Shown: positions 1,550 through 14,463, counted from the stretch's first letter. The stretch: DNA of 64,000 bases from an uncultured delta proteobacterium (GCA_963816965.1 CAWFMP010000002.1:875673-939672), one strand, 5' to 3'. Numbers and translations: made by a program. The notes: a model not told the origin generated them from the letters alone.

Positions 1550-2344
1550 GTGTCGCCCCATACTCCCTTATCGCAAATGCTCGACGGGCACCTGCCTACG
1601 ATCTGGAACTTCTGCTCCCGCATGACCCTGTCCGCGAACGATGCCAAGGACGCCACGTTCGAGACCTTCGAGCGCGCCGCCTCCAGCCCGCATCCCCCGT
1701 CGGACGACAAGGACATGGAGCTGTGGCTGCTCAAGATCGCGGCCCACGTGGTCGAGAAGCGGCTGCCGCCGACGCCCGAGGTCGACTTCGACCTGCTCGA
1801 CGAGACGCTGCGCTCGGAGGCGACGCGCACGCACGAGGTCTCGTCGCTGACCACGCCCGAGCGCGAGTTCCTGTTGTGGGAGCTCAAGCAGGGCTGCATG
1901 ACCGCGGTCATCAACTGTCTGTCGCCGGGCGAGCGGGTCGCCTTCGTCATGTCGTCGGTGATGTCGAAGTCCGACGAGGAGGCGGCCAAGGCGCTCGGCA
2001 TCAAGGTGTCGGCGTTCAAGGTGCGGCTGTCGCGCGCGCGCAAGAAGATCGGCGACTACCTGGCGCCCCGCTGCGAGCACATCGATCCGCGCAACCCGTG
2101 CCACTGCCCGTCGCGCATCGGCATCGCGCTGTCCAAGGGGTTCATCGCGCCGCCGCAGACGTCGGTGGTGCACCTGCGCACGCCGCAGCGGCCGTTCGAT
2201 CAGGAGATCAAGTCGCGCGACGCCACCAAGATCTTTCAGACGCTGCCGCCGGCGGAGGTGCCGGCGGAGCTGGTAGAGAAGCTCCGACAGGCGGTATCGT
2301 CCGGCGCGTGGACCCAGAAGGCCGCCGCCGCTCCGCGCAAGTAG
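1550..2344 (+). CDS. ECF-type sigma-70 family factor with C-terminal Cys/His-containing extension
   Basis: 264 aa; region-2-like N-terminus and region-4 HTH (LSPGERVAFVMSSV...ALGIKVSAFKVRLSRARKKI) followed by CEHIDPRNPCHCPSR; start uncertain. Confidence 0.55.
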   Translation: MSPHTPLSQMLDGHLPTIWNFCSRMTLSANDAKDATFETFERAASSPHPPSDDKDMELWLLKIAAHVVEKRLPPTPEVDFDLLDETLRSEATRTHEVSSLTTPEREFLLWELKQGCMTAVINCLSPGERVAFVMSSVMSKSDEEAAKALGIKVSAFKVRLSRARKKIGDYLAPRCEHIDPRNPCHCPSRIGIALSKGFIAPPQTSVVHLRTPQRPFDQEIKSRDATKIFQTLPPAEVPAELVEKLRQAVSSGAWTQKAAAAPRK

Positions 2345-2412
2345 CTCGCGCGGCGAGGCTGCACGGCATGCCGTGGCGATGGCGATGGCGATGGCGCCAG
2401 GGGGGCACTGAC

Positions 2413-2530
2413 GGCCCCGCGCGCACTGCCCCGCTGGGCTCAAACAGTCCTCGCCGCCGGGGCGCTGTGCTCGATTCGGGCCCTTGCCTGTGCTGCGGAG
2501 CTCGCCCAGCGGGGCAGTGCGCGCGGGGCC
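2413..2530. repeat. MITE-like dispersed element, family A, copy 1 (perfect 27-bp terminal inverted repeats GGCCCCGCGCGCACTGCCCCGCTGGGC)
   Basis: Near-identical copies at 10651-10768, 24047-24230, 34209-34328 (inverted), 62150-62330; intergenic. Confidence 0.8.
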
Positions 2531-2586
2531 TGCGTGCTCTTGGATGGGGAGCGGTTGCGGCGAGCGGCGGGCCGCGGTGCCGCTGG

Positions 2587-3774
2587 GTGGGGCTGGTGCT
2601 GGTTTTGTTGGCGGCGGGGCCGGTGCGGGCGCAGGTGTCGCGGGGGTCGGCGGTGCCGGTGCACGAGATCTATGCGTCGTGCTCGGGGGACGGGATGCCG
2701 CCGCCGGTGCGGGAGCACGCCGACACGCGCGTGCCGCCGTATAGCTTGCAGCTGTCGGCGCTGGTGCAGGCGTGGGGCGCCGCCTTCGCCGGGCGCGACG
2801 TGCGCCAGACCGACCTCGACGCCGTCGACGGCGCGGGGCTCTACCTCGGCGTGGCGCGCCTGGGCGCCTGCGGTCTTCTGCGCACGCCGAGCGGGCCCAT
2901 CTCGTGGACCGTGGTCTACGAGCCCTTCTCGCTGGACGAAGACGCGCATCCCGATCACCGCGCCTGGGGCCGCATCGTCGCCGCCGAGCTCGGCTTCGCT
3001 CCCTGGAGCTGGCTGACGATCTCGGCGGGCATCCGCAAGGTCGCGTTCAGCTACGGCCACGACGAGCCGCTGGAGCTGCGCGCGCTGCCGATCATCCCCT
3101 ACGTGTCGCAGTCGGTGGCGCCCGATCGGCGCGCCGGGATTACGCTCGACGACGACTTTGGCGCTGCGCACGTGGTCATCGGCGTCTACGAGGGGGCGCG
3201 CGATCTGAGCATCACCGACGACGGCGGCATGCTCCTCGCCGCGCGCCTGGTCGCCGAGCCCATCGGCCCCGTCGGCAACACGGTCTCGACCCGCGGCGAC
3301 CCGGCGGTGTGGCGCCGGCGGATGCGCTTCGCCATCAACGCGTCGATCCTGTATCAGTACGCCAACGGCGCCAGCAACTATGCGCTCGCCGCCGATGGTG
3401 CGCTCCATTGGGGGCCGGTCGGCCTGGCCGGCGAGTACGTGTTCGCGTCGGACACCACCGTGGAGGCGCCGGTGCGCCTGCTGCCGTATCCGGCGCCGGC
3501 GCGGCAGGGGTTGTGGGCCCAGGCGGCGGTGATGCTGTGGCGGCCGTGGATCGAGGTCAGCGCGCGCTACGACTGGTTCGACAACCCGGCGCAGGCGGGG
3601 CAGCGCTTCCACGCCGTCACCGCGGGGCTCGATCTGTACGGTGGGCGCCTGCTCAAGCTGCAGGCGGTCTACACGCACAAGTTCCACTACGGGCTGGCCG
3701 CCGTCGGCGCCCCGGACATCGACGACGACGTGTTCCTGCTGGTCGGCCAGCTCGCGCTCGAGCGGACCTTCTGA
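2587..3774 (+). CDS. putative outer-membrane beta-barrel protein
   Basis: Signal-peptide-like N-terminus (GLVLVLLAAGPVRAQ), alternating amphipathic strands, C-terminal ...LALERTF ending in Phe as in OMP barrels; the upstream part of the long ORF 1723-3774 overlaps the sigma gene and repeat and is discarded; start approximate (GTG). Confidence 0.5.
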   Translation: MGLVLVLLAAGPVRAQVSRGSAVPVHEIYASCSGDGMPPPVREHADTRVPPYSLQLSALVQAWGAAFAGRDVRQTDLDAVDGAGLYLGVARLGACGLLRTPSGPISWTVVYEPFSLDEDAHPDHRAWGRIVAAELGFAPWSWLTISAGIRKVAFSYGHDEPLELRALPIIPYVSQSVAPDRRAGITLDDDFGAAHVVIGVYEGARDLSITDDGGMLLAARLVAEPIGPVGNTVSTRGDPAVWRRRMRFAINASILYQYANGASNYALAADGALHWGPVGLAGEYVFASDTTVEAPVRLLPYPAPARQGLWAQAAVMLWRPWIEVSARYDWFDNPAQAGQRFHAVTAGLDLYGGRLLKLQAVYTHKFHYGLAAVGAPDIDDDVFLLVGQLALERTF

Positions 3775-3861
3775 GCAGCCCCCTCCGTAGACCGCGCGCG
3801 GGGGTTCCGGTACCGTGGAAGGTCGCTGCTATCCGGCCGTAGACCCACACTGGAGGCGCGC

Positions 3862-5649
3862 GTGGCCCACGTCGTCGGCATCGATCTCGGCACCACCAAC
3901 TCGCTGGTCGCGCACATGCGCGCGGACCGGCCGGAGATCATCGCCAGCCAGGCGGGCAAGCGGCTGACGCCTTCGATCGTCGGGCTCGACAAGCACGATC
4001 AGATCCATGTGGGCGAGACGGCGAAGAACCAGCTCATCGCCATGCCCGACCGCACCGTGGCCGAGGTCAAGCGGCTCATGGGCTCGCCGGCGCAGGTCAA
4101 GCTCGGCGCCCGGCAGTACACGCCACAGGAGATCTCGGCGTTCATCTTGAAGCGGCTCAAGGAGGACGCCGAGCGCAGCCTGGGCGAGGCGGTCGCCGAG
4201 GCGGTCATCACCGTGCCCGCCTACTTCACCGACGCGCAGCGGCAGGCGACCAAGGACGCGGGCGAGCTCGCCGGGTTTCGCGTCGATCGCATCCTGAACG
4301 AGCCCACCGCGGCGGCGCTGGCCTACGGGCTCGACCACCTCGACCAGGAGCAGTTCGTCCTGGTGTACGACCTGGGCGGCGGCACCTTCGACGTCAGCGT
4401 GCTCGAGATGTTCGAGGGCGTGCTCGACGTCAAGGCCTCGGCCGGCAACAACCACCTGGGCGGCGGCGACTTCGATCGCGCGGTGGCCGGGTGGCTGGCG
4501 CGCGAGTTCGAGACCGCGCACGGCATCGACCTGCGGCAGGACGTCAAGGCGATGGTGCGGCTCAAGCAGGCGGCGGAGCAGGCCAAGATGGATCTGTCGT
4601 CGATGACGGCGACGACCATCATGCTGCCGTTTCTGGCGGTCAAGGGGGCCGAGCCGCTGTCGCTCGAGACCGAGCTGACGCGGCCCAAGCTCGAGGAGCT
4701 CATCGGCGCCATGATCCGCTCCACGCTGGAGCCGGTGGAGTCGGCGCTGCGCGACGCCAAGCTCGACAAGGCGCGCATCACCGACGTCGTGCTGGTGGGC
4801 GGCAGCTCGCGCATCCCGCTGGTGCAGTCGCTCCTGCACGACTACTTCGGCAAGGAGGCGCGGCGCGGCGTGCACCCCGACGAGGCGATCGCGCTCGGGG
4901 CGGCGGTGCAGGCGGGGCTCAAGTCGGGCGCCATCTCGACCGAGCGCGGCATCATGATCACCGACGTCTGCCCGTTCACGCTCGGCGTCGAGGTGGTGGC
5001 CAACGCCGGCTCGCAGAAGATGGGAGGCATGTTCTCGCCCATCATCCCCCGCAACTCGACGGTGCCGGTGTCGCGCACCGAGGTCTACTCGACGACGGGC
5101 GATCAGCAGCGCGTCGTCGACATCAAGGTGTACCAGGGCGAGTCGCGGCTGGTGAAGAACAACACCTTCCTCGACTCCTACTCGATCGACGGCATTCCGC
5201 CGGCGCCGGCGGGGCACGAGAAGGTGGCGATCACCTTCACCTACGACGTCAACGGCATCCTCAACTGCAAGACCAAGATCGTGTCGACCGGCAAGGAGGC
5301 GCTGCTGGTGGTCGACAAGTCGGCGCAGCGGATGTCGGAAGGCGACAAGGGGCGGGCCCGGGAGCGGCTCGACGGCGAGTGGAAGGGCGAGCCGCGAGGT
5401 GCGGGCGCCGGCGCTGCGCCGCCGGCGGCGACCGGCGCACCGCCGGTGGCGACCGGCGCACCGCCGGTGGCGAGCGCGGGCGAGGGTGGCGCGCTGGTGG
5501 CGGCGGCGCGGGCGAAGCTTGCCAATGTCGACGCGAGCCACAAGGGGAAGATCGAAGCGCTGGTGGCGCAGCTCGAAGGGGCGAGTGACGCAGCGACCCG
5601 GGCGCGCGCCGACCGCGAGCTGGCGCAGCTCTTGTTCGAGCTCGACTAG
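3862..5649 (+). CDS. Hsp70-family chaperone (HscC-like, short C-terminal lid with low-complexity tail)
   Basis: 595 aa; VGIDLGTTNS, DLGGGTFDVSVLE, VLVGGSSRIPLVQ motifs; GGAGG Shine-Dalgarno before GTG start; first gene of coupled 4-gene operon. Confidence 0.9.
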   Translation: MAHVVGIDLGTTNSLVAHMRADRPEIIASQAGKRLTPSIVGLDKHDQIHVGETAKNQLIAMPDRTVAEVKRLMGSPAQVKLGARQYTPQEISAFILKRLKEDAERSLGEAVAEAVITVPAYFTDAQRQATKDAGELAGFRVDRILNEPTAAALAYGLDHLDQEQFVLVYDLGGGTFDVSVLEMFEGVLDVKASAGNNHLGGGDFDRAVAGWLAREFETAHGIDLRQDVKAMVRLKQAAEQAKMDLSSMTATTIMLPFLAVKGAEPLSLETELTRPKLEELIGAMIRSTLEPVESALRDAKLDKARITDVVLVGGSSRIPLVQSLLHDYFGKEARRGVHPDEAIALGAAVQAGLKSGAISTERGIMITDVCPFTLGVEVVANAGSQKMGGMFSPIIPRNSTVPVSRTEVYSTTGDQQRVVDIKVYQGESRLVKNNTFLDSYSIDGIPPAPAGHEKVAITFTYDVNGILNCKTKIVSTGKEALLVVDKSAQRMSEGDKGRARERLDGEWKGEPRGAGAGAAPPAATGAPPVATGAPPVASAGEGGALVAAARAKLANVDASHKGKIEALVAQLEGASDAATRARADRELAQLLFELD

Positions 5650-7268
5650 TGGCCCACCCGTTCGTCGACGAGCTCAAGCGCGAGGTGGTGCTCCATCCGG
5701 ACGACGCGGCGGCGCGCTATCGGCTGGCCGAGGCGCTCTTCGCCGACGGTGACTTCGCGACCGCGGCCAAGCAGCTGGAGAAGGCCATCAAGCTCGACGG
5801 CGCCGACCGCAACGCGCGCCGCCTGCTCGCCAGGTCGTACGAGCGCGCCGGCCGCGGGCCCGACGCGCTGCGCACGCTCGAGGAGCTGGCCCGGCGCGCG
5901 CCCGACGACGTGTCGACGCGCGAGGAGCTCTACGAGCTGTTTCTGGCCCAGGGGCGCATCGACGACGCGCTGGTGCACGCCGAGGAGGCGGCACGGCTGT
6001 CGCCGCTCGATCCCAGGCGCCATCGCACGACCGCCGACCTGTATCGGATGAAGCGCCTGTTGCCGCAGGCGCGCGCGGCGCTGGAGCGGGCGCAGCAGCT
6101 GGCGCCGGAGGATCCGCACCTTGCCGCCGAGCTGCGCGAGCTCTACCTCGAGCTGGGCGACGACGCCGCCTGCGCGCGCGTGGCCGGCGTGCGCGATCGC
6201 GGCTACTTTCTCGCGCAGGCCCGGGCGGCGCTCGACTCCGCGGCGCTCGCCGGGGCCACCCGCGACGGGGCGCTCGCGCAAGCGGCGGTCGCGCTGCGCG
6301 CGGGTGAGCTCGGCGCCGTCAAGCGCGCGCTCATGATCGCGACCGCGGCGGACAAGGGGGCGGCGGCGTACGAGTTCTTGCGCGGCGAGGTGCTGCTCAT
6401 CGAGGGCGAGGCCGAGCGCGCCGAGAAGGCCTTCCGCGCCGTGGTCGCGCGTGCCGACGACTTCGGGCTCGCCTACAACCGCCTCGGTGATCTGTTGCAG
6501 CATCGCGGCGAGCTGCGGGCGGCGGTCGGGTTCTACGAGTTGGCGCTGCGCCATGCGCCCGACGACGCCAACGCCGCCGAGGACCTGGGCGACGTGCTGG
6601 CGACGCTCGGCGAGCGCGAACGAGCCATCGCCATGTACCGCGCTGCCGCCGACCGCGATCCCAGCTCCCGCGCCGCCGACAAGCTGCGCTCGCTCGATGA
6701 CGCCGCGCGCGTGGCCGCGGCGACGGCGCCCGCCATCGGCAAGATCGGCGTGCTCGGCTGGACCCCATCGGGGGGCGCGGTCTCGCCGCTGGAGGCGGTC
6801 GCCGTAGTCGGGCACGGGCAGCTCATCTTCAGCGGCAACGTGGGGCCGACCTCGCGCGAGGCGGGCCTGGTGGCGTTCTCCTGCCTCAAGCTCAAGGCGC
6901 GCGACCTCGGCATCGGCGAGCTGGTCGCCAGCTACGATCTGCACCTGCACTTCACCGACACCGAGGTGGGCAAGGACGGGCCGTCGTCGGGGCTGGCGCT
7001 GGTGCTGGCGGGGATCAGCGCCTATCAGCAGCGGCCGGTGCGCGCCGGGCTGGCGGCGACGGGGGAGATCACGATTCACGGCGACGTCAAGCCGGTGGGC
7101 GGCATCCACGAAAAGATCGTCGCCGCGCACCTGGCTGGCTTCCGCACGGTGCTCATGCCGCGGCGCAACCTCAAGGAGGCGCGCGAGCTGCCGCCGGAAG
7201 TGGCATCCAAGATGGAGATCGGGTTCGTCGATTCGGTGGCCGAAGCGATCGACCGGGCGCTGGTGTGA
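5649..7268 (+). CDS. TPR-repeat protein with C-terminal Lon-type (S16) peptidase domain, no AAA+ ATPase
   Basis: 539 aa; N-terminal TPRs; C-terminal KDGPSSGLALVLAGISAY (catalytic Ser) and GEITIHGDVKPVGGIHEKIVAAHLAGFRTVLMPRRN (catalytic Lys) match Lon proteolytic domain; GTG start overlaps Hsp70 stop (TAGTG). Confidence 0.85.
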   Translation: MAHPFVDELKREVVLHPDDAAARYRLAEALFADGDFATAAKQLEKAIKLDGADRNARRLLARSYERAGRGPDALRTLEELARRAPDDVSTREELYELFLAQGRIDDALVHAEEAARLSPLDPRRHRTTADLYRMKRLLPQARAALERAQQLAPEDPHLAAELRELYLELGDDAACARVAGVRDRGYFLAQARAALDSAALAGATRDGALAQAAVALRAGELGAVKRALMIATAADKGAAAYEFLRGEVLLIEGEAERAEKAFRAVVARADDFGLAYNRLGDLLQHRGELRAAVGFYELALRHAPDDANAAEDLGDVLATLGERERAIAMYRAAADRDPSSRAADKLRSLDDAARVAAATAPAIGKIGVLGWTPSGGAVSPLEAVAVVGHGQLIFSGNVGPTSREAGLVAFSCLKLKARDLGIGELVASYDLHLHFTDTEVGKDGPSSGLALVLAGISAYQQRPVRAGLAATGEITIHGDVKPVGGIHEKIVAAHLAGFRTVLMPRRNLKEARELPPEVASKMEIGFVDSVAEAIDRALV

Positions 7269-7279
7269 AAGGACGAACG

Positions 7280-9907
7280 ATGGGCAACGCCTCGCACAAC
7301 TTCTACGAAGTCCTCGGGATCGATCGCGCCGCCGACGAGCGGGCGATCAAGAAGGCCTACTTCGCGCTGGTGCGCAAGTTCCCGCCGGAGACGCACCCCG
7401 AGGAGTTCCAGCGCATCCGCGAAGCGTACGAGGTGTTGGCCAATCCGCACTCGCGCGCCGACTACGACGCGGTCAACCAGTACGATCAGTACGGCGCCGA
7501 GGTCTCGGCGCACCTGAAGGCCGGCACCGAGGCGATGGAGCACGGCGACTGGCCGCGCGCGCAGGCGGAGCTGATCGCGGTGCTCGAGCAGCAGCCGCAG
7601 CTGCACTTCGCGCGCGACCTGCTCGGCATGGCCTACCTGAACGCGCACCGCCCGGCGGACGCGATGCGCGAGTTCAAGCGGCTCGTCGAGGCCGAGGCGG
7701 GCAACCCCGTCTATCACCTGCACCAGGGCTACGCCCATTATGCGCAGAACCAATACGCGCCTGCGCTCGACTGCTATCGAGAGGCGCGCAAGCTCGACCC
7801 GTCGGACACGCGCTCGCTCGTCGCCACCGCCGACTGCCTGGTGGCGCAGAAGCAGTACGAGCCGGCGCTGTTGGAGCTCGACCGCGCCATCGGGCTCGAC
7901 GGGCAGGTCGACTTCAACGACTTCGTGTTCTTCATGCGCAAGGTGCAGATCCAGCTCCTGCGCGACCGCGGCGATCTCGCCGAGCAGGAGCTCGATCAGA
8001 TCTTCAAGATCCTGCCCGACGACGCCGAGACCAAGAAGTACGTGGCCACGCGCCTGGCGTCGCTGGCGTCGGATCTGTTCGCCATGAAGCGCTCGGCCGA
8101 CGCCAACCGCCTGCTCGGGCGCTGCCGCAAGCTCGACCCTTCGCGCAAGTCGATGGAGTACACCTTCCCCGCGCGCACCAGGCTGCGCATCGACGCGCTG
8201 CCGGAGGCGTCGCGCAAGTGGCTGGCCAGGCGCGCCACCGAGCCGGGGCCGGGCAAGCTCAAGCACAACGCCAAGGCGGGGCCGGTGCTGCTCTTGCTGC
8301 TCGCCATCGGCGTGCAGCTCGCCGCGCTCAACGCCGGGTTCAACACCCGGCGCGCCTGGGACGGCGAGGAGCGCGCCCTCATGTTCCTGCTCCTCGTCGC
8401 GGCGCCGCTGCTCTTCGCGCTGGCGCTGCGGCGCATGCGCCGCGTCTCGCGCTCTCCCTACGGCAAGTACACGGCGCTGCATCCCTGCCACCTGTTGCAG
8501 GTGGAGATCGACCGGCTGACGGTGTGGCCGTTGGTCAACCTGCACGACGTGTCGCTCACGCACCACTCGACCAACGGCGTCTACTCGCACACCATGTGCC
8601 GGCTCAACTTCGCCGGCACCGTTTGCAACATCACCATCCGCGGGCAGCAGGCGGCGGTCGATTGGGCCAACCTCGTGCTCGAGCAGCGGCGCAAGGTGCT
8701 CGACCTCATGAGCGTGGGGCTGCTCGAGGCCGAGGAGGGCTTCGACCTGGTGCCGCCGGCGTTGCTGCAGCCGGGCAAGGCGGGGCCGCCGGCGCCGAAG
8801 GACCCGTCGGCGCGCAAGTGGTACCTCGTGGCCGCCGGCCTCGGGGTGGTCATGTTCTCCGCCGCCGTCCCGCTCAACGTCGGCGCCGCCGAGCGCTACG
8901 CCTGGACCTCGGTGTCGCGCTATCCGACCCTGCCCGGGTACCGCGACTACATCGCCGCCTTCCCGTCGGGCGCACACGCCTCCGAGGCCAGGCTGCGCAT
9001 CGACGAGGCGTACGAGCGCGCCATCGCGCAGTACCAGGCGCGCGCGGGCTCGACCTCGGCGGGCTCGAGGGCGATCGTGGCCGTCCTGCACGCGCTGGAG
9101 GCGGCGGGCGGTCCGGCGGTCAACGTCACCTACGCGCCGCAGATCGACTTCAGCGCCGTCCGCGCCTTCCCCGATCGGGGGATCATCGACGCCGAGCCGG
9201 CGTTCACGCCCGCGCAGAACAAGGCGCGCGAGCACAGCATCACCTCGGCCCTGCGCGAGGCGTTCGGCAACGTCGTCGGCTACGACGTCCTCGACTTCGA
9301 CGACGGCGTCTCCTCGTACGCGTACGACTACGAGAATCGGCGGCCGCACGCGCGCACCAGGGGGCCGATCACCTTCGCCATCCAATATCGGGTCGGGCCG
9401 TCGGGCACGGTCTACGAGTCGACCACGGGCACGGCGCGCAAGTTCTACGGCATCCTGTTCGACTGGCAGCTCGCCATCACCGACGAGAAGGGTGTGGAGC
9501 TGTACAAGACGCAGCTGTCCTCGGCGCCGGCCAAGAACATCCGCTACACGACCAGCGGCTACGTGCCGAGCGACATCCTGCCCTACACGAAGATGGCGGA
9601 GTCGGCGTTCAGCGAGTTCGGGCGCAAGCTGGCGGGGGACTTCGGCATCAGCATTGCCAAGCCGGCCGACGCCGATTTCGCCGACGATGCGCCGCCGCCG
9701 CCGCCGCCGTCGGCTGCCACGACGGCGTCGCTGCCGGCTTCGCCGCCGACCGCGGCGGCGCCCGCGCCGCCTTCGCGCGCCGCCATCCCGGGCTACAGCC
9801 CCGAGCTGCAGAAGGCGCTCGACGACATCGCCAGGCACGGTCGGATGTCGGACGAAACGCGGCGCCTGCTGCTCGACCTGCAGAACAAGCAGCGACCGCA
9901 GCGGTGA
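7280..9907 (+). CDS. J-domain (DnaJ-like) co-chaperone with TPR repeats, three predicted TM helices and Pro-rich C-terminal region
   Basis: J domain NFYEVLGIDRAADERAIKKAYFALVRKFPPETHPEEFQRIREAYEVL with HPE in place of canonical HPD; AAGGA SD 6 nt before ATG 7280 (alternative GTG 7265 overlaps upstream stop); hydrophobic segments at aa ~335-400 and ~520. Confidence 0.85.
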   Translation: MGNASHNFYEVLGIDRAADERAIKKAYFALVRKFPPETHPEEFQRIREAYEVLANPHSRADYDAVNQYDQYGAEVSAHLKAGTEAMEHGDWPRAQAELIAVLEQQPQLHFARDLLGMAYLNAHRPADAMREFKRLVEAEAGNPVYHLHQGYAHYAQNQYAPALDCYREARKLDPSDTRSLVATADCLVAQKQYEPALLELDRAIGLDGQVDFNDFVFFMRKVQIQLLRDRGDLAEQELDQIFKILPDDAETKKYVATRLASLASDLFAMKRSADANRLLGRCRKLDPSRKSMEYTFPARTRLRIDALPEASRKWLARRATEPGPGKLKHNAKAGPVLLLLLAIGVQLAALNAGFNTRRAWDGEERALMFLLLVAAPLLFALALRRMRRVSRSPYGKYTALHPCHLLQVEIDRLTVWPLVNLHDVSLTHHSTNGVYSHTMCRLNFAGTVCNITIRGQQAAVDWANLVLEQRRKVLDLMSVGLLEAEEGFDLVPPALLQPGKAGPPAPKDPSARKWYLVAAGLGVVMFSAAVPLNVGAAERYAWTSVSRYPTLPGYRDYIAAFPSGAHASEARLRIDEAYERAIAQYQARAGSTSAGSRAIVAVLHALEAAGGPAVNVTYAPQIDFSAVRAFPDRGIIDAEPAFTPAQNKAREHSITSALREAFGNVVGYDVLDFDDGVSSYAYDYENRRPHARTRGPITFAIQYRVGPSGTVYESTTGTARKFYGILFDWQLAITDEKGVELYKTQLSSAPAKNIRYTTSGYVPSDILPYTKMAESAFSEFGRKLAGDFGISIAKPADADFADDAPPPPPPSAATTASLPASPPTAAAPAPPSRAAIPGYSPELQKALDDIARHGRMSDETRRLLLDLQNKQRPQR

Positions 9908-10392
9908 CCGCGAGGCTCCTCGTCGTCGGCAACTCCGGCTCGGGGAAGTCGAGCTACGCCCGGCGCGTGGCCACGGCCGGCGGCGCCACCTACCTCGCGC
10001 TCGACTCGATCGTGTGGGAGCCGCACCAGATCGGCGTCGAACGGCCGCAGGCGGACGTGCGCGCCGATCTGGCGGCGTTCCTCGCCGCCCACGAGCGCTG
10101 GGTCATCGAGGGGTGCTACGGCGAGCTCATCGCGTGCGCGCTTCCGGCCTGCTCCCGGCTGCTGTTCCTGAATCCGGGGCTGGCCGCGTGCCTGGCCAAC
10201 AATCGGCGCCGGCCGTGGGAGCCGCACAAGTACGACTCGCCGGACGATCAGGCGCGCCTGCTGCCGAACCTGCAGGCCTGGGTCGAGAGCTACTACACGC
10301 GCACGGACCCATGGTCGTACGCGTACCATCGGCGGCTGTTCGACGGCTTCGACGGCGACAAGCGCGAGATCCGCGACCTCGGCGAGCTCTAG
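9904..10392 (+). CDS. small P-loop NTPase / nucleotide kinase-like protein
   Basis: 162 aa; Walker A LLVVGNSGSGKSS; GTG start overlaps J-protein stop (GTGA); last gene of the coupled operon. Confidence 0.75.
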   Translation: MTARLLVVGNSGSGKSSYARRVATAGGATYLALDSIVWEPHQIGVERPQADVRADLAAFLAAHERWVIEGCYGELIACALPACSRLLFLNPGLAACLANNRRRPWEPHKYDSPDDQARLLPNLQAWVESYYTRTDPWSYAYHRRLFDGFDGDKREIRDLGEL

Positions 10393-10558
10393 CAGGGTGT
10401 TGAAGAACTCGCTCCGCGTCGCCGCGCTTGGTCTTTTCGGCAATCGCTTCGTTGCTCCTCGGTCAGTTCCCGAAGGGGAGCTTCCCTCGTCGCGCCTCGC
10501 GCTTCGCGAAAATCCACGTCGCGCGGCTCGGTCCGGAGTTCTTCAACACCCTGCTAGG
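10389..10558. repeat. MITE-like element B1 with perfect 22-bp terminal inverted repeats (CTAGCAGGGTGTTGAAGAACTC)
   Basis: 170 bp; begins on the stop codon of the P-loop gene; internal GC-rich stem; could double as terminator. Confidence 0.7.
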
Positions 10559-10650
10559 CTCTGACGATTCATCACATCTCGGTTCGAGCTCTACGAAGGG
10601 TTCGGCCTTCAAACCGCGTCGCATCGAGAGCGCGCCAAAACGCCACCTCC

Positions 10651-10768
10651 GGCCCCACGCACGCTGCCCCGCTGAGCTCGAACAGTCCTCGCCACCGGAC
10701 TGCTGTGCTCGATTCTGCCCCTTGCCTGTGCTGCGGAACTCGCCCAGCGGGGCAGTGTGCGTGGGGCC
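10651..10768. repeat. family A MITE-like element, copy 2
   Basis: Same 27-bp TIR architecture with a few substitutions. Confidence 0.8.
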
Positions 10769-10970
10769 TCAGTGCTCGCGTGAAAGCCCAGACCCGCTGC
10801 TGCAGCTTCGTCCGGGTCCCTGGACGCCGTTTTCCCAAGAGCCCATAGAGCGGGCGGTCGTCGGCGCCGTCTTGACGGGCGTCGAGGAGCGCTCGTCGCG
10901 AAGCGACGTTGCCGGCGACGAGTCCGAGGGCCCGGACGTGCCGCCGGCCTGTAAGGCCGCCGGCGTAGCG

Positions 10971-11041
10971 GCCCCTCGGCGCCAACCGGCGACACCGCTC
11001 CCGCCCGCGGCCCCTCGGCGCCAACCGGCGACACCGCTCCC
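10971..11041. repeat. direct tandem repeat, 39-bp unit x ~1.8 (GCCCCTCGGCGCCAACCGGCGACACCGCTCCCGCCCGCG)
   Basis: Seen directly in the sequence; non-coding region. Confidence 0.7.
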
Positions 11042-11117
11042 CATGGCGTGGCGTTTGGGCGCGATCACGAGGCGACGCGGTTCGTTCAATCAAATGCGGA
11101 GACGTGATGAATCGTGA

Positions 11118-11319
11118 GAGCTCTAACCCCAGGGTTCGCTTCGATTGACCTGCTGCGGACGATCCGCGCGGTCGCCTCGAGGACTACGTCCTCGCTCCCT
11201 CGGTCGAAATACCGACGGGTATTCCTCGGTCGGTTGCTCCGGTCGCATCCACGATCCGCCTCACGCGGCTGGCCCTCGCCAGCTCAACCGAAGCGAACCC
11301 TGGGGTTAGGCTAGAGCTC
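11118..11319. repeat. MITE-like element B2 with ~26-bp terminal inverted repeats (GAGCTCTAACCCCAGGGTTCGCTTCG)
   Basis: ~200 bp; abuts stop codon of the GNAT gene; shares the GAGCTCTA/TAGGCT end motif with B1. Confidence 0.7.
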
Positions 11320-11808
11320 CTCGCGGAGGATGCCGAAGAGCCACTCGTCGACGAAGCGGCCGCGCTTGCGCACGGCGCGGCGGATGGTGCCCTCGAGCGT
11401 GAAGCGGTTCTTCTCGAAGACGCGGCGCGAGGCGACGTTGCCGACGAAGACGGTGGCCTCGAGCTTGGCCAGGCCGACGCGCTCGAACGCAAAGCGCGTC
11501 GCCAGGCGCACGGCTTCGGTGCCGTAACCGCGGCCGTGGTGCGCATGGCCGATCCACAAGCCCATGTCGCCGCGGAAGTCGTTCTCGGGCCGCACGTCGA
11601 GCGTGCCCACGGGCTCGTCGCCGGCGACGATGGCGAACATGTGCAACTCGCCGCGCGCGACCCTGCTCGAGCGATCGCCGATCGCCTCCCGAAAGTCGTC
11701 GAGCGACTCGGGGCCGTCCCACTGGAGCGTGTCGGAAACGTCGGTGCCGGCGACCAGCGGGTAGAGCCGGTCAGCGTCTTCGGCGCGGATGGGGCGCAGG
11801 GTAATCAC
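11311..11808 (-). CDS. GNAT family N-acetyltransferase (RimJ/RimL-like)
   Basis: 165 aa; acetyl-CoA-binding motif region HHGRGYGTEAVRLATRFAFE. Confidence 0.85.
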   Translation of the reverse strand: MITLRPIRAEDADRLYPLVAGTDVSDTLQWDGPESLDDFREAIGDRSSRVARGELHMFAIVAGDEPVGTLDVRPENDFRGDMGLWIGHAHHGRGYGTEAVRLATRFAFERVGLAKLEATVFVGNVASRRVFEKNRFTLEGTIRRAVRKRGRFVDEWLFGILREEL

Positions 11809-11863: not shown

Positions 11864-13053
<1,190 letters not shown>

Positions 13054-14463
13054 CGTTCGCTTCCTAGGCGCGCTTCGCGCCAGGTACTCGATGAGATCGA
13101 TCTTGGTGATGACGCCGACGAGATCGTCGCGCTCGAGCACGCACACCAGCTTGGCGTCGTTGAAGATGTTCTTGCAGCAGCTGGATCTTGGTCTGCGGCG
13201 TCACCGTCGCGTAGTCGGCCTCGACCAGATCGTCGATCGGCGACGTCCAGTCGACCCCGGCTGCGTCGAGCAGGTAGTTCGAGCAGATCGATCTCGCGTC
13301 ACCAGGCCCGACAGGCGCCCGCTGCTCCAGCACCGGCATCTGCGAGATGCCGTGCTCCTTGAGCAGGCCGATCACCGTCGCGCAGCGTGTCGCCGCGCTT
13401 GGCGGTGATGATGCGCGCGCTGCGTGCTTCGTGCGCGAGCAGGTCGCGCACCGTGCCCAGCGGATCCTCCTCGTCGAGGAAGCCGTTCTCGCGCATCCAC
13501 TCGTCGTCGAAGATCTTCGACAGGTACTTCTGCGCCGCAGTCGGGCAGGAGCACCAGGATGTTCTTCTTGTCGTCGCCGAGCTGCTCGGCGTACTTGATG
13601 GCGCCCGCCACCGCCGCGCCGCACGAGCCGCCGCAGAACAGCCCCTCCTGCGCGCACCAGCTCGCGCGTCATGCAGGAAGCACTCCTTGTCGTCGACGCG
13701 CATGATCTCGTCGATGATCTTGAGGTTCATCGTCGCCGGGCAGGAAGTCCTCGCCGATGCCCTCGACGTAGTAGGTGAACGGCTTGGTCATGCGGCCGGT
13801 CTTGACGTACTCGTAGTAGAGCGAGCCGATCGGATCGACGCCCACCACCTGGAAGCCCGGCTTCTTCTCCTTGAAGTAGCTTGCCGCAGCCCGAGATCGT
13901 GCCGCCGGTGCCCATGCCGGCGACGAAGACGTCGATCTCGCCGCCGGTCTGCTCCCAGATCTCCGGGCGCCGTCGAGACGTAGTGCGCCTCGGGGTTGGC
14001 CGGGTTGTGGTACTGGTTCGCGTGGAACGAGTTCGGCGTCTCCTCGACGAGCCGCTTGGTCACCTCGTAGTAGCTGCGCGGATCCTCGGGCTCGACGGCG
14101 GTCGGGCAGATGACCACCTTGGCGCCGAACGCGCGCAGGCCGGCGATCTTCTCGTTCGACATCTTGTCGGGCATGACGAAGATGCACTTGTAGCCGCGCA
14201 TCGCGGCCACCAGCGCCAGCCCGACGCCGGTGTTGCCGCTGACGTCGCCTCGACGATCGTGCCGCCCGGCCCGAGCAGCCCGCGCCGCTCGGCGTCGCGG
14301 ACGATGTTGCATCGCCACGCGGTCCTTCATCGAGCCGCCCGGGTTCAGGTACTCGAGCTTGACGTAGATGTCGCTCTTGACGTGCGCGGCGACCTTGTTG
14401 AGCTTGACGATCGGCGTGTGAGCCGATGGCGTCGAGGACGGTGGCGCGAGCGCCTTTCATCAT
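13054..14463 (-). pseudogene. cystathionine beta-synthase (PLP domain + CBS pair), reading frame broken several times
   Basis: [101 protein letters not shown] and C-terminal CBS-domain segment [15 protein letters not shown] lie in alternating frames; two compensating shifts only ~80 nt apart near 14200-14290. Confidence 0.7.

What the first reader, a model, noticed from the sequence alone, without database searches (positions are those of the whole stretch)
3862..10392. Translationally coupled four-gene operon: Hsp70 - TPR/Lon-peptidase-domain protein - TPR membrane J-protein - P-loop NTPase
Four consecutive plus-strand genes are joined by overlapping stop and start codons (TAGTG, then an ATG 12 nt after the stop with an alternative GTG giving a GTGA overlap, then GTGA). 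This implies tight stoichiometric co-expression. The content is unusual. It starts with an HscC-like Hsp70 whose lid is replaced by a low-complexity tail. Next comes a protein in which TPR repeats (typically substrate- or partner-binding) are fused to a stand-alone Lon S16 proteolytic domain with catalytic Ser and Lys intact and no AAA+ unfoldase. Then follows an 880-aa J-domain protein (HPE, not canonical HPD) with its own TPR array, three predicted TM helices and a Pro-rich tail. The last gene is a 162-aa Walker-A kinase-like NTPase. The arrangement suggests a dedicated membrane-associated chaperone-guided proteolysis module. The E. coli hscC-djlB/djlC locus (HscC with two J-domain partners) is a distant analogue, but that locus encodes no Lon-like peptidase or P-loop kinase. 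The operon sits next to a repeat-dense stretch of the kind seen near mobile accessory DNA. As a four-gene unit it does not match any named system I know of.
Basis: partly seen in the sequence, partly recalled or inferred. Interest (0 to 1): 0.8.

Follow-up and report, generated by a model that had tools for sequence, protein, structure and literature searches.

The report
Myxobacterial Hsp70–Lon peptidase–membrane J-protein module
Three of the four genes (an HscC-like Hsp70, a TPR protein ending in a Lon-type peptidase with no ATPase, and a membrane-spanning J-like protein) form an uncharacterised cluster conserved across Myxococcota and sometimes fused, which suggests a chaperone-driven protease at the inner membrane; the fourth gene, a small kinase-like protein, is a local add-on.

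Summary
The four + strand ORFs, their overlapping junctions and their domain content are real. Comparative data change the unit.

- **Conserved core.** Hsp70 -> TPR-Lon_C -> J/TPR membrane protein is kept in this order in all 31 myxobacterial loci recovered. These span Polyangia, Corallococcus, Anaeromyxobacter and MAGs, and the junctions are mostly 0-7 nt gaps or 4-nt overlaps. One clade fuses Hsp70 directly to TPR-Lon_C.
- **Fourth gene.** The 162-aa P-loop gene accompanies the core only in this genome and one sister genome. It belongs to a very large, widespread kinase-like family.
- **Alternative fourth gene.** 22 other loci carry a different gene, X, a roughly 600-aa membrane-anchored protein. 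X is present where the J protein lacks the periplasmic C-terminal domain found here.
- **Hsp70.** It shares HscC's indels and C-terminal end.
- **J domain.** It is DjlB/DjlC-type, but the canonical triad position reads PPE.
- **Peptidase.** The Lon domain is LonA-type with an invariant Ser446/Lys489 dyad.
- **J-protein topology.** Cytosolic J + TPR, a TM hairpin, a PH-like domain, a third TM, then a periplasmic LptE/PelC-like domain.

There is no defence-system match, no phage copy and no description in the literature searched. The most likely function is an Hsp70-coupled, membrane-tethered peptidase with periplasmic input. The substrate is unknown.

The parts
3862..5649 (+). Gene 1: HscC-like Hsp70 (595 aa). 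It has the NBD, SBD-beta, a P/A/G-rich linker (aa 509-546, nt 5386-5499) and a conserved C-terminal helical segment ending ...LLFELD.
   Evidence: Pfam HSP70 5e-172. It scores below the NCBIfam DnaK and HscA cut-offs. It shares HscC's 24-aa and 4-aa NBD deletions and HscC's C-terminal end. The C-terminal motif is conserved in about 25 loci.
5649..7268 (+). Gene 2: TPR repeats (aa ~1-350) fused to a LonA-type S16 peptidase domain (aa 359-539, nt 6723-7265). It has no AAA+ module, no TM segment and no signal peptide.
   Evidence: Pfam Lon_C 3e-43 plus many TPR models. The closest solved relatives are LonA protease domains, 5.5e-39. 185 homologues were found; every one that carries an organism name is from Myxococcota. 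About 35 clusters at 50% identity exist in 1.84 billion representatives.
6984..6986 (+). Codon of the catalytic Ser446 (TCG) of the Lon domain.
   Evidence: Invariant in alignment A1. It aligns to the Ser of KDGPSAG in solved Lon.
7113..7115 (+). Codon of the catalytic Lys489 (AAG) of the Lon domain.
   Evidence: Invariant in alignment A1. It lies 43 residues after the Ser, as in E. coli Lon S679/K722, and aligns to GG.KEK*.
7265..9907 (+). Gene 3: polytopic J-like/TPR protein, 880 aa from GTG 7265 or, more probably, 875 aa from ATG 7280.
   Evidence: Pfam DnaJ 2e-14 plus TPR. 95 family members were found; every one that carries an organism name is from Myxococcota. It lies directly downstream of TPR-Lon_C in all 31 loci.
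7298..7468 (+). J domain of the DjlB/DjlC type. It shares their 6-aa deletion after the triad. The canonical HPD position reads PPE.
   Evidence: BLASTP against DjlC 1e-05. Alignment with DnaJ, DjlB and DjlC. Motif counts.
7502..8164 (+). Cytosolic TPR array of the J protein.
   Evidence: Pfam TPR_2, TPR_16 and TPR_19. Conserved in alignment A2.
8270..8437 (+). Transmembrane hairpin (TM1 aa 336-360, TM2 aa 368-391).
   Evidence: Hydropathy scan. Lys/Arg-rich flanks on the cytosolic side are visible in the sequence.
8453..8716 (+). The most conserved part of gene 3: a PH-like seven-strand plus helix domain, cytosolic, lying between TM2 and TM3.
8819..8890 (+). TM3 (aa 519-542).
   Evidence: Hydropathy scan. 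A long helix in the AF2 model.
8930..9640 (+). Predicted periplasmic region: helical hairpins followed by an alpha/beta domain of the LptE/PelC/CsgG-N/LpoB-like lipoprotein fold.
9904..10392 (+). Gene 4: 162-aa P-loop NMP/shikimate-kinase-like protein. It is a lineage-specific addition and not part of the conserved module.
   Evidence: Walker A GNSGSGKS. AF2 pLDDT 92.8, with Foldseek matches to shikimate, adenylate and gluconate kinases. At least 4200 homologous clusters exist in many taxa. It is adjacent to the module only here and in L039.
10379..11309 (.). Intergenic block of three inverted-repeat (MITE-like) elements: 10389-10557 (22-nt perfect arms), 10558-11121 (nested arms I6 and I2) and 11123-11309 (46-nt arms). 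These are neighbours of the module, not part of it.
   Evidence: the repeat finder. Further copies of two of the elements lie 1.3-2.4 kb upstream of the window start in the same contig, at 95-97% identity. No Rfam match.

Best explanation
The conserved unit is a three-protein machine specific to Myxococcota.

**Shown**
- The three genes are kept in the same order, tightly coupled and sometimes fused.
- The residues of the Hsp70 ATPase site and the Lon Ser-Lys dyad are conserved.
- The J-like protein spans the membrane. Its J, TPR and PH-like parts are cytosolic, and it has a periplasmic LptE/PelC-like domain.

**Inferred**
- The polytopic J-like protein tethers a dedicated HscC-type Hsp70 to the inner membrane and selects clients through its TPR or PH-like domains.
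- The Hsp70 uses ATP to capture or unfold the client.
- The Hsp70 hands the client to the TPR-Lon_C protein, an ATP-independent peptidase derived from LonA. In effect Hsp70 does the job of the missing AAA+ module.
- The periplasmic domain of the J protein, or the separate membrane protein X in lineages that lack that domain, couples the activity to the state of the cell envelope.

It is open whether the outcome is bulk degradation of membrane-proximal clients or site-specific processing of a regulator. The client is unknown. Gene 4, the small kinase-like protein, is a recent neighbour that became translationally coupled in this lineage.
For: - **Synteny.** tblastn of the window proteins on 31 myxobacterial loci found by a genome scan shows the same order in every locus whose flank is present. 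L036, L039, L040 and L042 show the same.
- **Junctions.** Most are -4 to +7 nt.
- **Fusions.** Hsp70 is joined directly to TPR-Lon_C in P0112, P0114, L023 and P0442, which come from different assemblies.
- **Catalytic residues.** The Lon dyad is invariant. The Hsp70 catalytic residues are invariant.
- **Subtype.** The Hsp70 is HscC-type by indels, and the J domain is DjlB/DjlC-type.
- **Localisation.** Genes 1 and 2 have no TM segment; gene 3 has three.
- **Fourth component.** Gene X and the periplasmic domain of the J protein are complementary across loci.
Against: - No interaction, activity or phenotype was measured, and no complex could be modelled with these tools.
- The canonical His of the HPD triad is replaced (PPE), so classical stimulation of the Hsp70 ATPase is not assured.
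- My idea of an EEVD-like Hsp70 tail that binds TPR did not hold. The conserved C-terminus aligns to the end of the lid helices of DnaK and HscC.
- One J homologue (P0186, an Archangiaceae MAG) stands without the other two genes next to it.
- Stand-alone S16 peptidases known from the literature (my own knowledge: CalpL, SepM, birnavirus VP4) act without a chaperone.
Confidence: 0.5

Rival explanations
1. The module is a trans-envelope signalling device that works by site-specific cleavage. The periplasmic domain senses an envelope cue, and the Lon-type peptidase makes one defined cut in a regulator, such as an anti-sigma-like or transcription factor. Hsp70 and the J protein act only as a gate or holder of that regulator. 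There is no degradative unfolding.
For: - From my own knowledge, ATP-independent S16 peptidases are typically processing enzymes; the weak PADLOC CARF_LON hit at 4.6e-05 reflects this relationship.
- The J protein has a sensor-like periplasmic domain.
- In the window's clade an ECF-type sigma gene sits just upstream: window 1577-2344, and also L002, L023, L031 and L039.
Against: - The sigma gene is linked only in one clade. It is absent upstream in Corallococcus, L040 and L042.
- The Lon domain is closest to degradative LonA, not to CalpL or SepM.
- No candidate substrate gene is conserved in the cluster.
Confidence: 0.22
2. The module is an anti-phage or abortive-infection defence system built on an Hsp70-like ATPase and a Lon-like effector.
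For: - BrxL (1e-16) and CARF_LON (4.6e-05) match the Lon domain in PADLOC, and PDC-M61B matches the Hsp70 weakly (4e-04).
- In several Corallococcus species, type I restriction-modification genes or a STAND-kinase gene lie immediately downstream.
Against: - The PADLOC hits are at domain level only, and genes 3 and 4 have none.
- The module keeps fixed chromosomal neighbours: Thg1-like upstream and RNase H downstream in Corallococcus; a sigma gene, a beta-barrel gene and Cys/Met genes in the window's clade. The defence genes are inserted next to it in only some species.
- It is present in every Corallococcus species recovered, so it does not show the patchy distribution typical of defence genes.
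- No relative was found on viral contigs.
Confidence: 0.08
3. One reading: all four genes, including the P-loop kinase-like protein, form one obligatory stoichiometric system.
For: A GTGA overlap joins gene 3 and gene 4 here, and the same 4-nt overlap occurs in the sister genome L039.
Against: - Gene 4 has no homologue in any of the other loci, even at E < 1.
- Its family has at least 4200 clusters in unrelated taxa, including Xanthomonadaceae.
- Close relatives L002, L003 and L009 (83-87% identity in gene 2) lack it.
Confidence: 0.07
4. The genes are ordinary proteostasis genes that happen to be adjacent and have no joint function.
For: Each domain family is common when taken alone.
Against: The same order is kept across classes of Myxococcota down to 40-45% identity, stop and start codons overlap, and natural fusions exist.
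Confidence: 0.03

Closest known systems
E. coli HscC with DjlB/DjlC (hscC-djlC-ybeU-ybeT-djlB-ybeR-ybeQ locus)
   Same: - A specialised non-DnaK Hsp70 is encoded next to its own J protein.
- The Hsp70 shares HscC's two NBD deletions and HscC's C-terminal end.
- The J domain shares the 6-aa deletion of DjlB/DjlC and the Glu at the third triad position.
- By my own recollection (not checked here) DjlB and DjlC are membrane-anchored, like gene 3.
- The E. coli locus also encodes TPR-like Sel1-repeat proteins, YbeQ and YbeT.
   Different: - The E. coli locus has no peptidase.
- Here the J protein is 880 aa with a TPR array, three TM segments, a PH-like domain and a periplasmic domain. Outside the J domain it shows no similarity to DjlC.
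- The triad is PPE, not HPE.
- Identity to HscC (39%) is lower than to DnaK (43%).
LonA (ATP-dependent protease La)
   Same: The peptidase domain is clearly LonA-type, at about 1e-38 to Thermus and Meiothermus Lon, with the Ser-Lys dyad in place.
   Different: The N-terminal domain and the AAA+ unfoldase are absent and TPR repeats stand in their place. NCBIfam lon scores 143 bits against a cut-off of 608.
Stand-alone or re-purposed Lon-like domains (BrxL of BREX, CRISPR-associated CalpL, SepM)
   Same: An S16-type domain is used without a canonical Lon AAA+ engine. There are weak PADLOC and NCBIfam matches over that domain only.
   Different: The scores are far below those for LonA. There are no BREX genes and no SAVED, CARF or PDZ domain, and the partners are an Hsp70 and a J protein.
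Eukaryotic Hsp70-CHIP triage (a TPR co-chaperone that routes Hsp70 clients to degradation)
   Same: The logic is similar: a TPR protein links an Hsp70 to a degradative activity. This is an analogy from my own knowledge.
   Different: There is no homology. The effector is a peptidase, not a ubiquitin ligase. The EEVD-type tail recognition that I looked for is not supported, because the conserved Hsp70 C-terminus is the end of the lid helices.
Myxococcus xanthus stkABC
   Same: An Hsp70 gene comes first in a three-gene cluster of a myxobacterium.
   Different: StkB is a 141-aa SCP2-like protein and StkC an 89-aa protein, with no Lon and no J domain (PMC4319316). It is not the same system.

Membership tests
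Hsp70 (PF00012) | Full NBD and SBD-beta matching the family model above threshold | tested here: met
   573.6 bits against a cut-off of 20.6.
Hsp70 (PF00012) | ATPase catalytic residues (DnaK D8, K70, E171, D194, T199, D201) | tested here: met
   The equivalent residues D8, K70, E147, D170, T175 and D177 are invariant in the alignment with DnaK and HscC.
DnaK (equivalog) | Score above the NCBIfam DnaK cut-off, with a complete lid and a disordered tail | tested here: not met
   PRK00290 scores 605 against a cut-off of 648, and TIGR02350 scores 597 against 823. Only residues 1-489 match. The helix-B region is replaced by a linker and there is no tail.
HscC-type Hsp70 | NBD deletions relative to DnaK, and a C-terminus that ends at the lid helices | tested here: met
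   The 24-aa and 4-aa deletions are shared, and LFELD aligns to HscC AIEIP at the very end of both proteins.
HscC-type Hsp70 | Groups with HscC rather than DnaK in a phylogeny | tested here: inconclusive
   No tree was built. Pairwise identity is 39% to HscC and 43% to DnaK.
J-domain protein (PF00226) | Four-helix J domain matching the model above threshold | tested here: met
   53.6 bits against a cut-off of 27.8, over aa 12-68.
J-domain protein (PF00226) | His-Pro-Asp triad between helices II and III | tested here: not met
   The canonical position reads PPE (SPE or NPE in a few members). The nearby HPE is shifted by four residues, and its His is replaced by A, E, F, C or Q in some members.
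DjlB/DjlC-type J protein | HPE triad and a short loop into helix III | tested here: inconclusive
   The 6-aa deletion and the Glu are shared, but His is replaced by Pro. Malinverni et al. 2023 list HPE as the DjlB/DjlC variant (PMC10410713).
LonA protease | S16 domain with the Ser-Lys dyad | tested here: met
   S446 and K489 are invariant and align to solved Lon.
LonA protease | AAA+ ATPase module and N-terminal domain in the same chain | tested here: not met
   Only Lon_C and TPR models match. TIGR00763 scores 143 against a cut-off of 608.
BREX BrxL | Full-length BrxL and accompanying BREX genes | tested here: not met
   Only positions 518-677 of the 680-position model match. TIGR02653 scores 56 against a cut-off of 628. 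No BREX genes lie nearby.
Known anti-phage defence systems (PADLOC-DB 2.0) | All components match the models of one system | tested here: not met
   Genes 3 and 4 have no hit, and genes 1 and 2 have only domain-level or weak hits.
NMP/shikimate-kinase-like P-loop kinases (gene 4) | Walker A motif and the kinase fold | tested here: met
   GNSGSGKS is invariant. Foldseek probability is 1.0 to shikimate and adenylate kinases, with TM-scores of 0.5-0.6. The Pfam AAA_33 score of 23.2 is below the cut-off of 27. The substrate was not determined.

The most novel reading that the evidence does not exclude
This would be a new class of energy-dependent protease in which an Hsp70 (with a J-like partner), rather than an AAA+ ring, powers substrate delivery to a Lon-type Ser-Lys peptidase. 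The machine is tethered to the inner membrane and gated from the periplasm through an LptE/PelC-like sensor domain or the alternative protein X. The natural Hsp70-TPR-Lon_C fusions would be single-chain versions of it.
Probability: 0.3. Interest if true: 0.85.

Novelty: new variant of a known kind. Interest (0 to 1): 0.62.

Why it matters
All known energy-dependent proteases of bacteria pair a peptidase with an AAA+ unfoldase. Hsp70 is known to cooperate with them only indirectly. A conserved, sometimes fused, pairing of an Hsp70 with a Lon peptidase that has lost its AAA+ module would be a direct chaperone-protease coupling in bacteria.

It would also give the poorly understood HscC/DjlC branch of Hsp70 systems a concrete biochemical output to test. 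The J protein adds a transmembrane link to the envelope. Its J domain lacks the canonical His, which makes it a natural test case for how strictly HPD is needed.

The system is restricted to Myxococcota, a phylum with large proteomes and complex envelopes.

Tried and rejected
1. I recalled that M. xanthus stkA-stkB-stkC might be this operon. The paper shows that StkB is SCP2-like and StkC is a small protein, so I rejected it.
2. I proposed that the conserved Hsp70 C-terminus (LLFELD) is an EEVD-like peptide for the TPR domains. Alignment shows it is the end of the lid helices, homologous to DnaK LMEIA and HscC AIEIP. I dropped this as specific evidence.
3. I tested whether gene X is a split-off version of the C-terminal domain of gene 3. 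There is no sequence similarity; the best E-value is 2.5. Only complementary presence remains.
4. The apparent 1150-aa Hsp70-TPR-Lon fusion in L016 is a reading-frame artefact, because the bridging segment is Arg-rich junk. L023, P0112, P0114 and P0442 are genuine fusions.
5. PADLOC gave no system-level match.
6. The viral contig scan found no relative.
7. Rfam at a permissive threshold found nothing in 3500-11500.
8. The promoter and terminator scan found nothing above the shuffle expectation.
9. The afdb50 fold library was unavailable.
10. The profile search of 1.84 billion representatives is swamped by giant TPR proteins after about 35 true family clusters. It carries no taxonomy, so it gave only a family-size estimate and one more fusion.
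11. Reviews and surveys of bacterial Hsp70s, J proteins and conflict systems contain no description of this cluster: PMC8215388, PMC8265645, PMC11019930, PMC10410713 and PMC7159879.

Full report
**What is in the window.** The region lies in DNA of about 71% G+C. Four + strand ORFs occupy 3862-5649, 5649-7268, 7265-9907 and 9904-10392. The junctions read TAGTG, GTGA (with an ATG 12 nt after the stop) and GTGA. Pfam gives:
- HSP70 (5e-172) for gene 1;
- many TPR models plus Lon_C (3e-43, aa 359-539) and no AAA domain for gene 2;
- DnaJ (2e-14, aa 12-68) plus TPR for gene 3;
- only a sub-threshold AAA_33 match over the Walker A of gene 4.

NCBIfam places gene 1 below the DnaK and HscA cut-offs and gene 2 far below the Lon cut-offs. 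PADLOC gives only domain-level hits: BrxL and CARF_LON on the Lon domain, a weak PDC-M61B hit on the Hsp70, and nothing for genes 3 and 4.

**Start codons.**
- The N-termini of genes 1 and 2 are conserved from the first residues in homologues.
- Gene 3 homologues begin at the Met that corresponds to ATG 7280. An AAGGA lies 8 nt upstream of it. The real junction there is probably an 11-nt gap rather than GTGA.
- Gene 4 has no alternative start near its conserved N-terminus, so its GTGA overlap stands.
- The ENA copy of the same contig has one extra T at window position 5473. That explains its shorter Hsp70 gene call. The window's frame yields the C-terminus conserved in all relatives, so the window's frame is right.

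**Is the cluster conserved?** A search with gene 2 found 185 proteins. Every one that carries an organism name is from Myxococcota. A scan of one genome per species with an alignment of these proteins returned 31 myxobacterial loci. They include Polyangia, Byssovorax, about a dozen Corallococcus species, Anaeromyxobacter and MAGs.

tblastn with the window's proteins shows Hsp70, TPR-Lon_C and the J protein in that order in every locus whose flank is present. Identities go down to 57%, 41% and 30% respectively. Four further contigs retrieved by exact protein look-up show the same arrangement. Most junctions are -4 to +7 nt, and the 4-nt overlap between genes 2 and 3 is the commonest state.

The scan used a single peptide pattern, so 31 is a lower bound and absences cannot be read from it. 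One exception was seen: an Archangiaceae MAG in which the J homologue stands alone.

**Fusions.** P0112 (856 aa), P0114, the ORF in L023 (861 aa) and P0442 join the Hsp70, just after SBD-beta and helix A, directly to the TPR-Lon_C protein. They come from different assemblies and have clean junction sequences. A fifth apparent fusion, in L016, is a frame artefact. Together with the strict synteny, these fusions are the strongest evidence that the Hsp70 and the peptidase work as one unit.

**Gene 4 is not part of that unit.**
- It has no homologue in any of the other loci, even at E < 1.
- It is adjacent, again with a 4-nt overlap, only in a sister genome (L039; 86% identity in gene 2, 73% in gene 4).
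- Its family comprises at least 4200 clusters, annotated as adenylate-kinase-family or shikimate kinase, in unrelated bacteria.
- Its model (pLDDT 92.8) resembles shikimate, adenylate and gluconate kinases at TM-scores of 0.5-0.6.

**A different fourth gene, X, in other lineages.** In 22 other loci the J gene is followed, often with a 4-nt overlap, by gene X. X is about 590-630 aa, with an N-terminal membrane anchor, a beta-rich region and weak TPR-like repeats. X is 31% identical between Minicystis and Corallococcus, so it is old. It is present where the J protein is about 800 aa or shorter and lacks the C-terminal domain described below. It is absent where the J protein is about 850 aa or longer, as here. 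The fusion clade is the exception. No X homologue exists in the 64-kb window.

**The Hsp70.**
- Against E. coli proteins it is 43% identical to DnaK and 39% to HscC.
- It shares with HscC a 24-residue and a 4-residue deletion in the NBD.
- It ends exactly where HscC ends (LFELD against AIEIP; DnaK continues after LMEIA).
- The ATPase catalytic residues are invariant.
- A P/A/G-rich linker (aa 509-546) replaces the helix-B part of the lid. The last roughly 45 residues align to lid helices C-E and are highly conserved across loci (...LD.ELT.LLF[DE]L).
- So the lid is remodelled, not deleted. I withdrew my idea that the C-terminus is a free TPR-binding peptide.

**The peptidase.** The Lon domain is closest to bacterial LonA protease domains (5.5e-39 to 7p6u), well ahead of BrxL or RadA. 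Ser446 and Lys489 are invariant, are spaced 43 residues apart as in E. coli Lon, and align to the catalytic motifs. The protein has no TM segment. A profile search of 1.84 billion representatives recovers only about 35 clusters with this architecture.

**The J protein.** Aligned with E. coli DnaJ, DjlB and DjlC, its J domain shares the 6-residue deletion of DjlB/DjlC after the triad. At the triad itself it reads PPE, where DnaJ has HPD and DjlB/DjlC have HPE. HPE is a known rare variant typified by DjlB/DjlC (PMC10410713). A Pro in place of the His has, to my knowledge, not been characterised.

Hydropathy gives three TM segments. An AlphaFold model of aa 385-880, built with 29 homologues (pLDDT 83), shows four elements:
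1. a seven-strand plus helix domain between TM2 and TM3;
2. a long TM helix;
3. helical hairpins;
4. an alpha/beta domain.

**Genomic context.**
- In the window's clade an ECF-type sigma gene precedes the module, joined in most of these loci by a signal-peptide-bearing beta-barrel-like protein. Cys/Met metabolism genes follow it.
- In Corallococcus, Thg1-like genes precede the module and RNase H and zinc-ribbon genes follow it. In some species type I restriction-modification genes or a STAND-kinase gene are inserted right after gene X.
- The module is therefore chromosomal and vertically inherited. The variable DNA lies beside it, not around it. No relative was found on viral contigs.
- In this genome the 0.9 kb after gene 4 holds three inverted-repeat elements. 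Two of them recur nearby in the same contig at 95-97% identity, so they are MITE-like.

**Interpretation.** The evidence supports a dedicated three-component machine: an HscC-type Hsp70, a membrane-spanning DjlC-type J-like protein that positions it, and a LonA-derived peptidase that lacks its own ATPase and is bound to the Hsp70 (covalently in some lineages). A periplasmic element is supplied either by the J protein or by X.

The most economical mechanism is Hsp70-assisted proteolysis or processing at the inner membrane under envelope control. This is an inference: no interaction, activity or client is known. The main rival is site-specific regulatory cleavage. That rival differs only in the kind of proteolysis. 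A defence role is unlikely on present evidence.

**Literature.** In the papers I could search, the cluster is not described. This covers the bacterial Hsp70 review, two M. xanthus Hsp70 studies, the J-protein survey and the conflict-system survey with Hsp70-containing systems.

**Verdict.** It is a new variant of the specialised Hsp70/J-protein theme, with a protease output that has not been described. Interest is moderate to high.

Noticed in passing
window 10379-11309: Three inverted-repeat elements lie in a row between gene 4 and the acetyltransferase gene: 22-nt perfect arms 125 nt apart, nested 23-nt and 35-nt arms spanning 564 nt, and 46-nt arms 95 nt apart. Two of them recur at 95-97% identity 1.3-2.4 kb upstream of the window start in the same contig, so they look like MITEs.
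   Followed up: partly
window 5473 (against L035): The ENA copy of this contig has one extra T inside the low-complexity linker of the Hsp70 gene. This truncates its gene call to 575 aa. The window version restores the conserved C-terminus.
   Followed up: yes
window 11885-14420 (against L035): This stretch, which holds the Cys/Met metabolism genes, differs from the ENA copy of the same contig by well over a hundred mismatches and many 1-nt indels. The flanks are nearly identical. The cause could be an assembly or polishing difference, or strain variation.
   Followed up: no
window 1577-2344 and 2368-3774: An ECF-type sigma factor with a Cys-rich C-terminal extension (CEHIDPRNPCHCP) is followed by a 468-aa protein with no Pfam match. 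That protein has a signal-peptide-like N-terminus and a C-terminal Phe, which suggests an outer-membrane beta-barrel. The sigma gene precedes the Hsp70 module in L002, L023, L031 and L039, and the beta-barrel-like gene in L002, L023 and L039; neither does so outside this clade.
   Followed up: partly
L036 16005-21521; L013 15681-19067; L012 12439-16371: In Corallococcus the site just downstream of the module's fourth gene X is variable. Type I restriction-modification genes or a kinase-STAND NTPase gene are inserted before conserved RNase H and zinc-ribbon genes.
   Followed up: partly
L037 (E. coli K-12 676000-688000): The E. coli hscC neighbourhood is a duplicated set: Sel1-repeat protein, DUF1266 protein and J protein (ybeQ-ybeR-djlB and ybeT-ybeU-djlC). 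TPR-like partners may therefore be a general feature of HscC-type systems.
   Followed up: no
L041 9001-18340: In an Archangiaceae MAG the J-protein homologue is separated from the module. A different Hsp70 (612 aa) is paired with a 421-aa AAA protein, and a ClpB-like gene lies nearby.
   Followed up: no
L040 11638-15837: In the MAG clade that lacks gene X, the J gene is followed by a 1399-aa protein with FG-GAP repeats.
   Followed up: no
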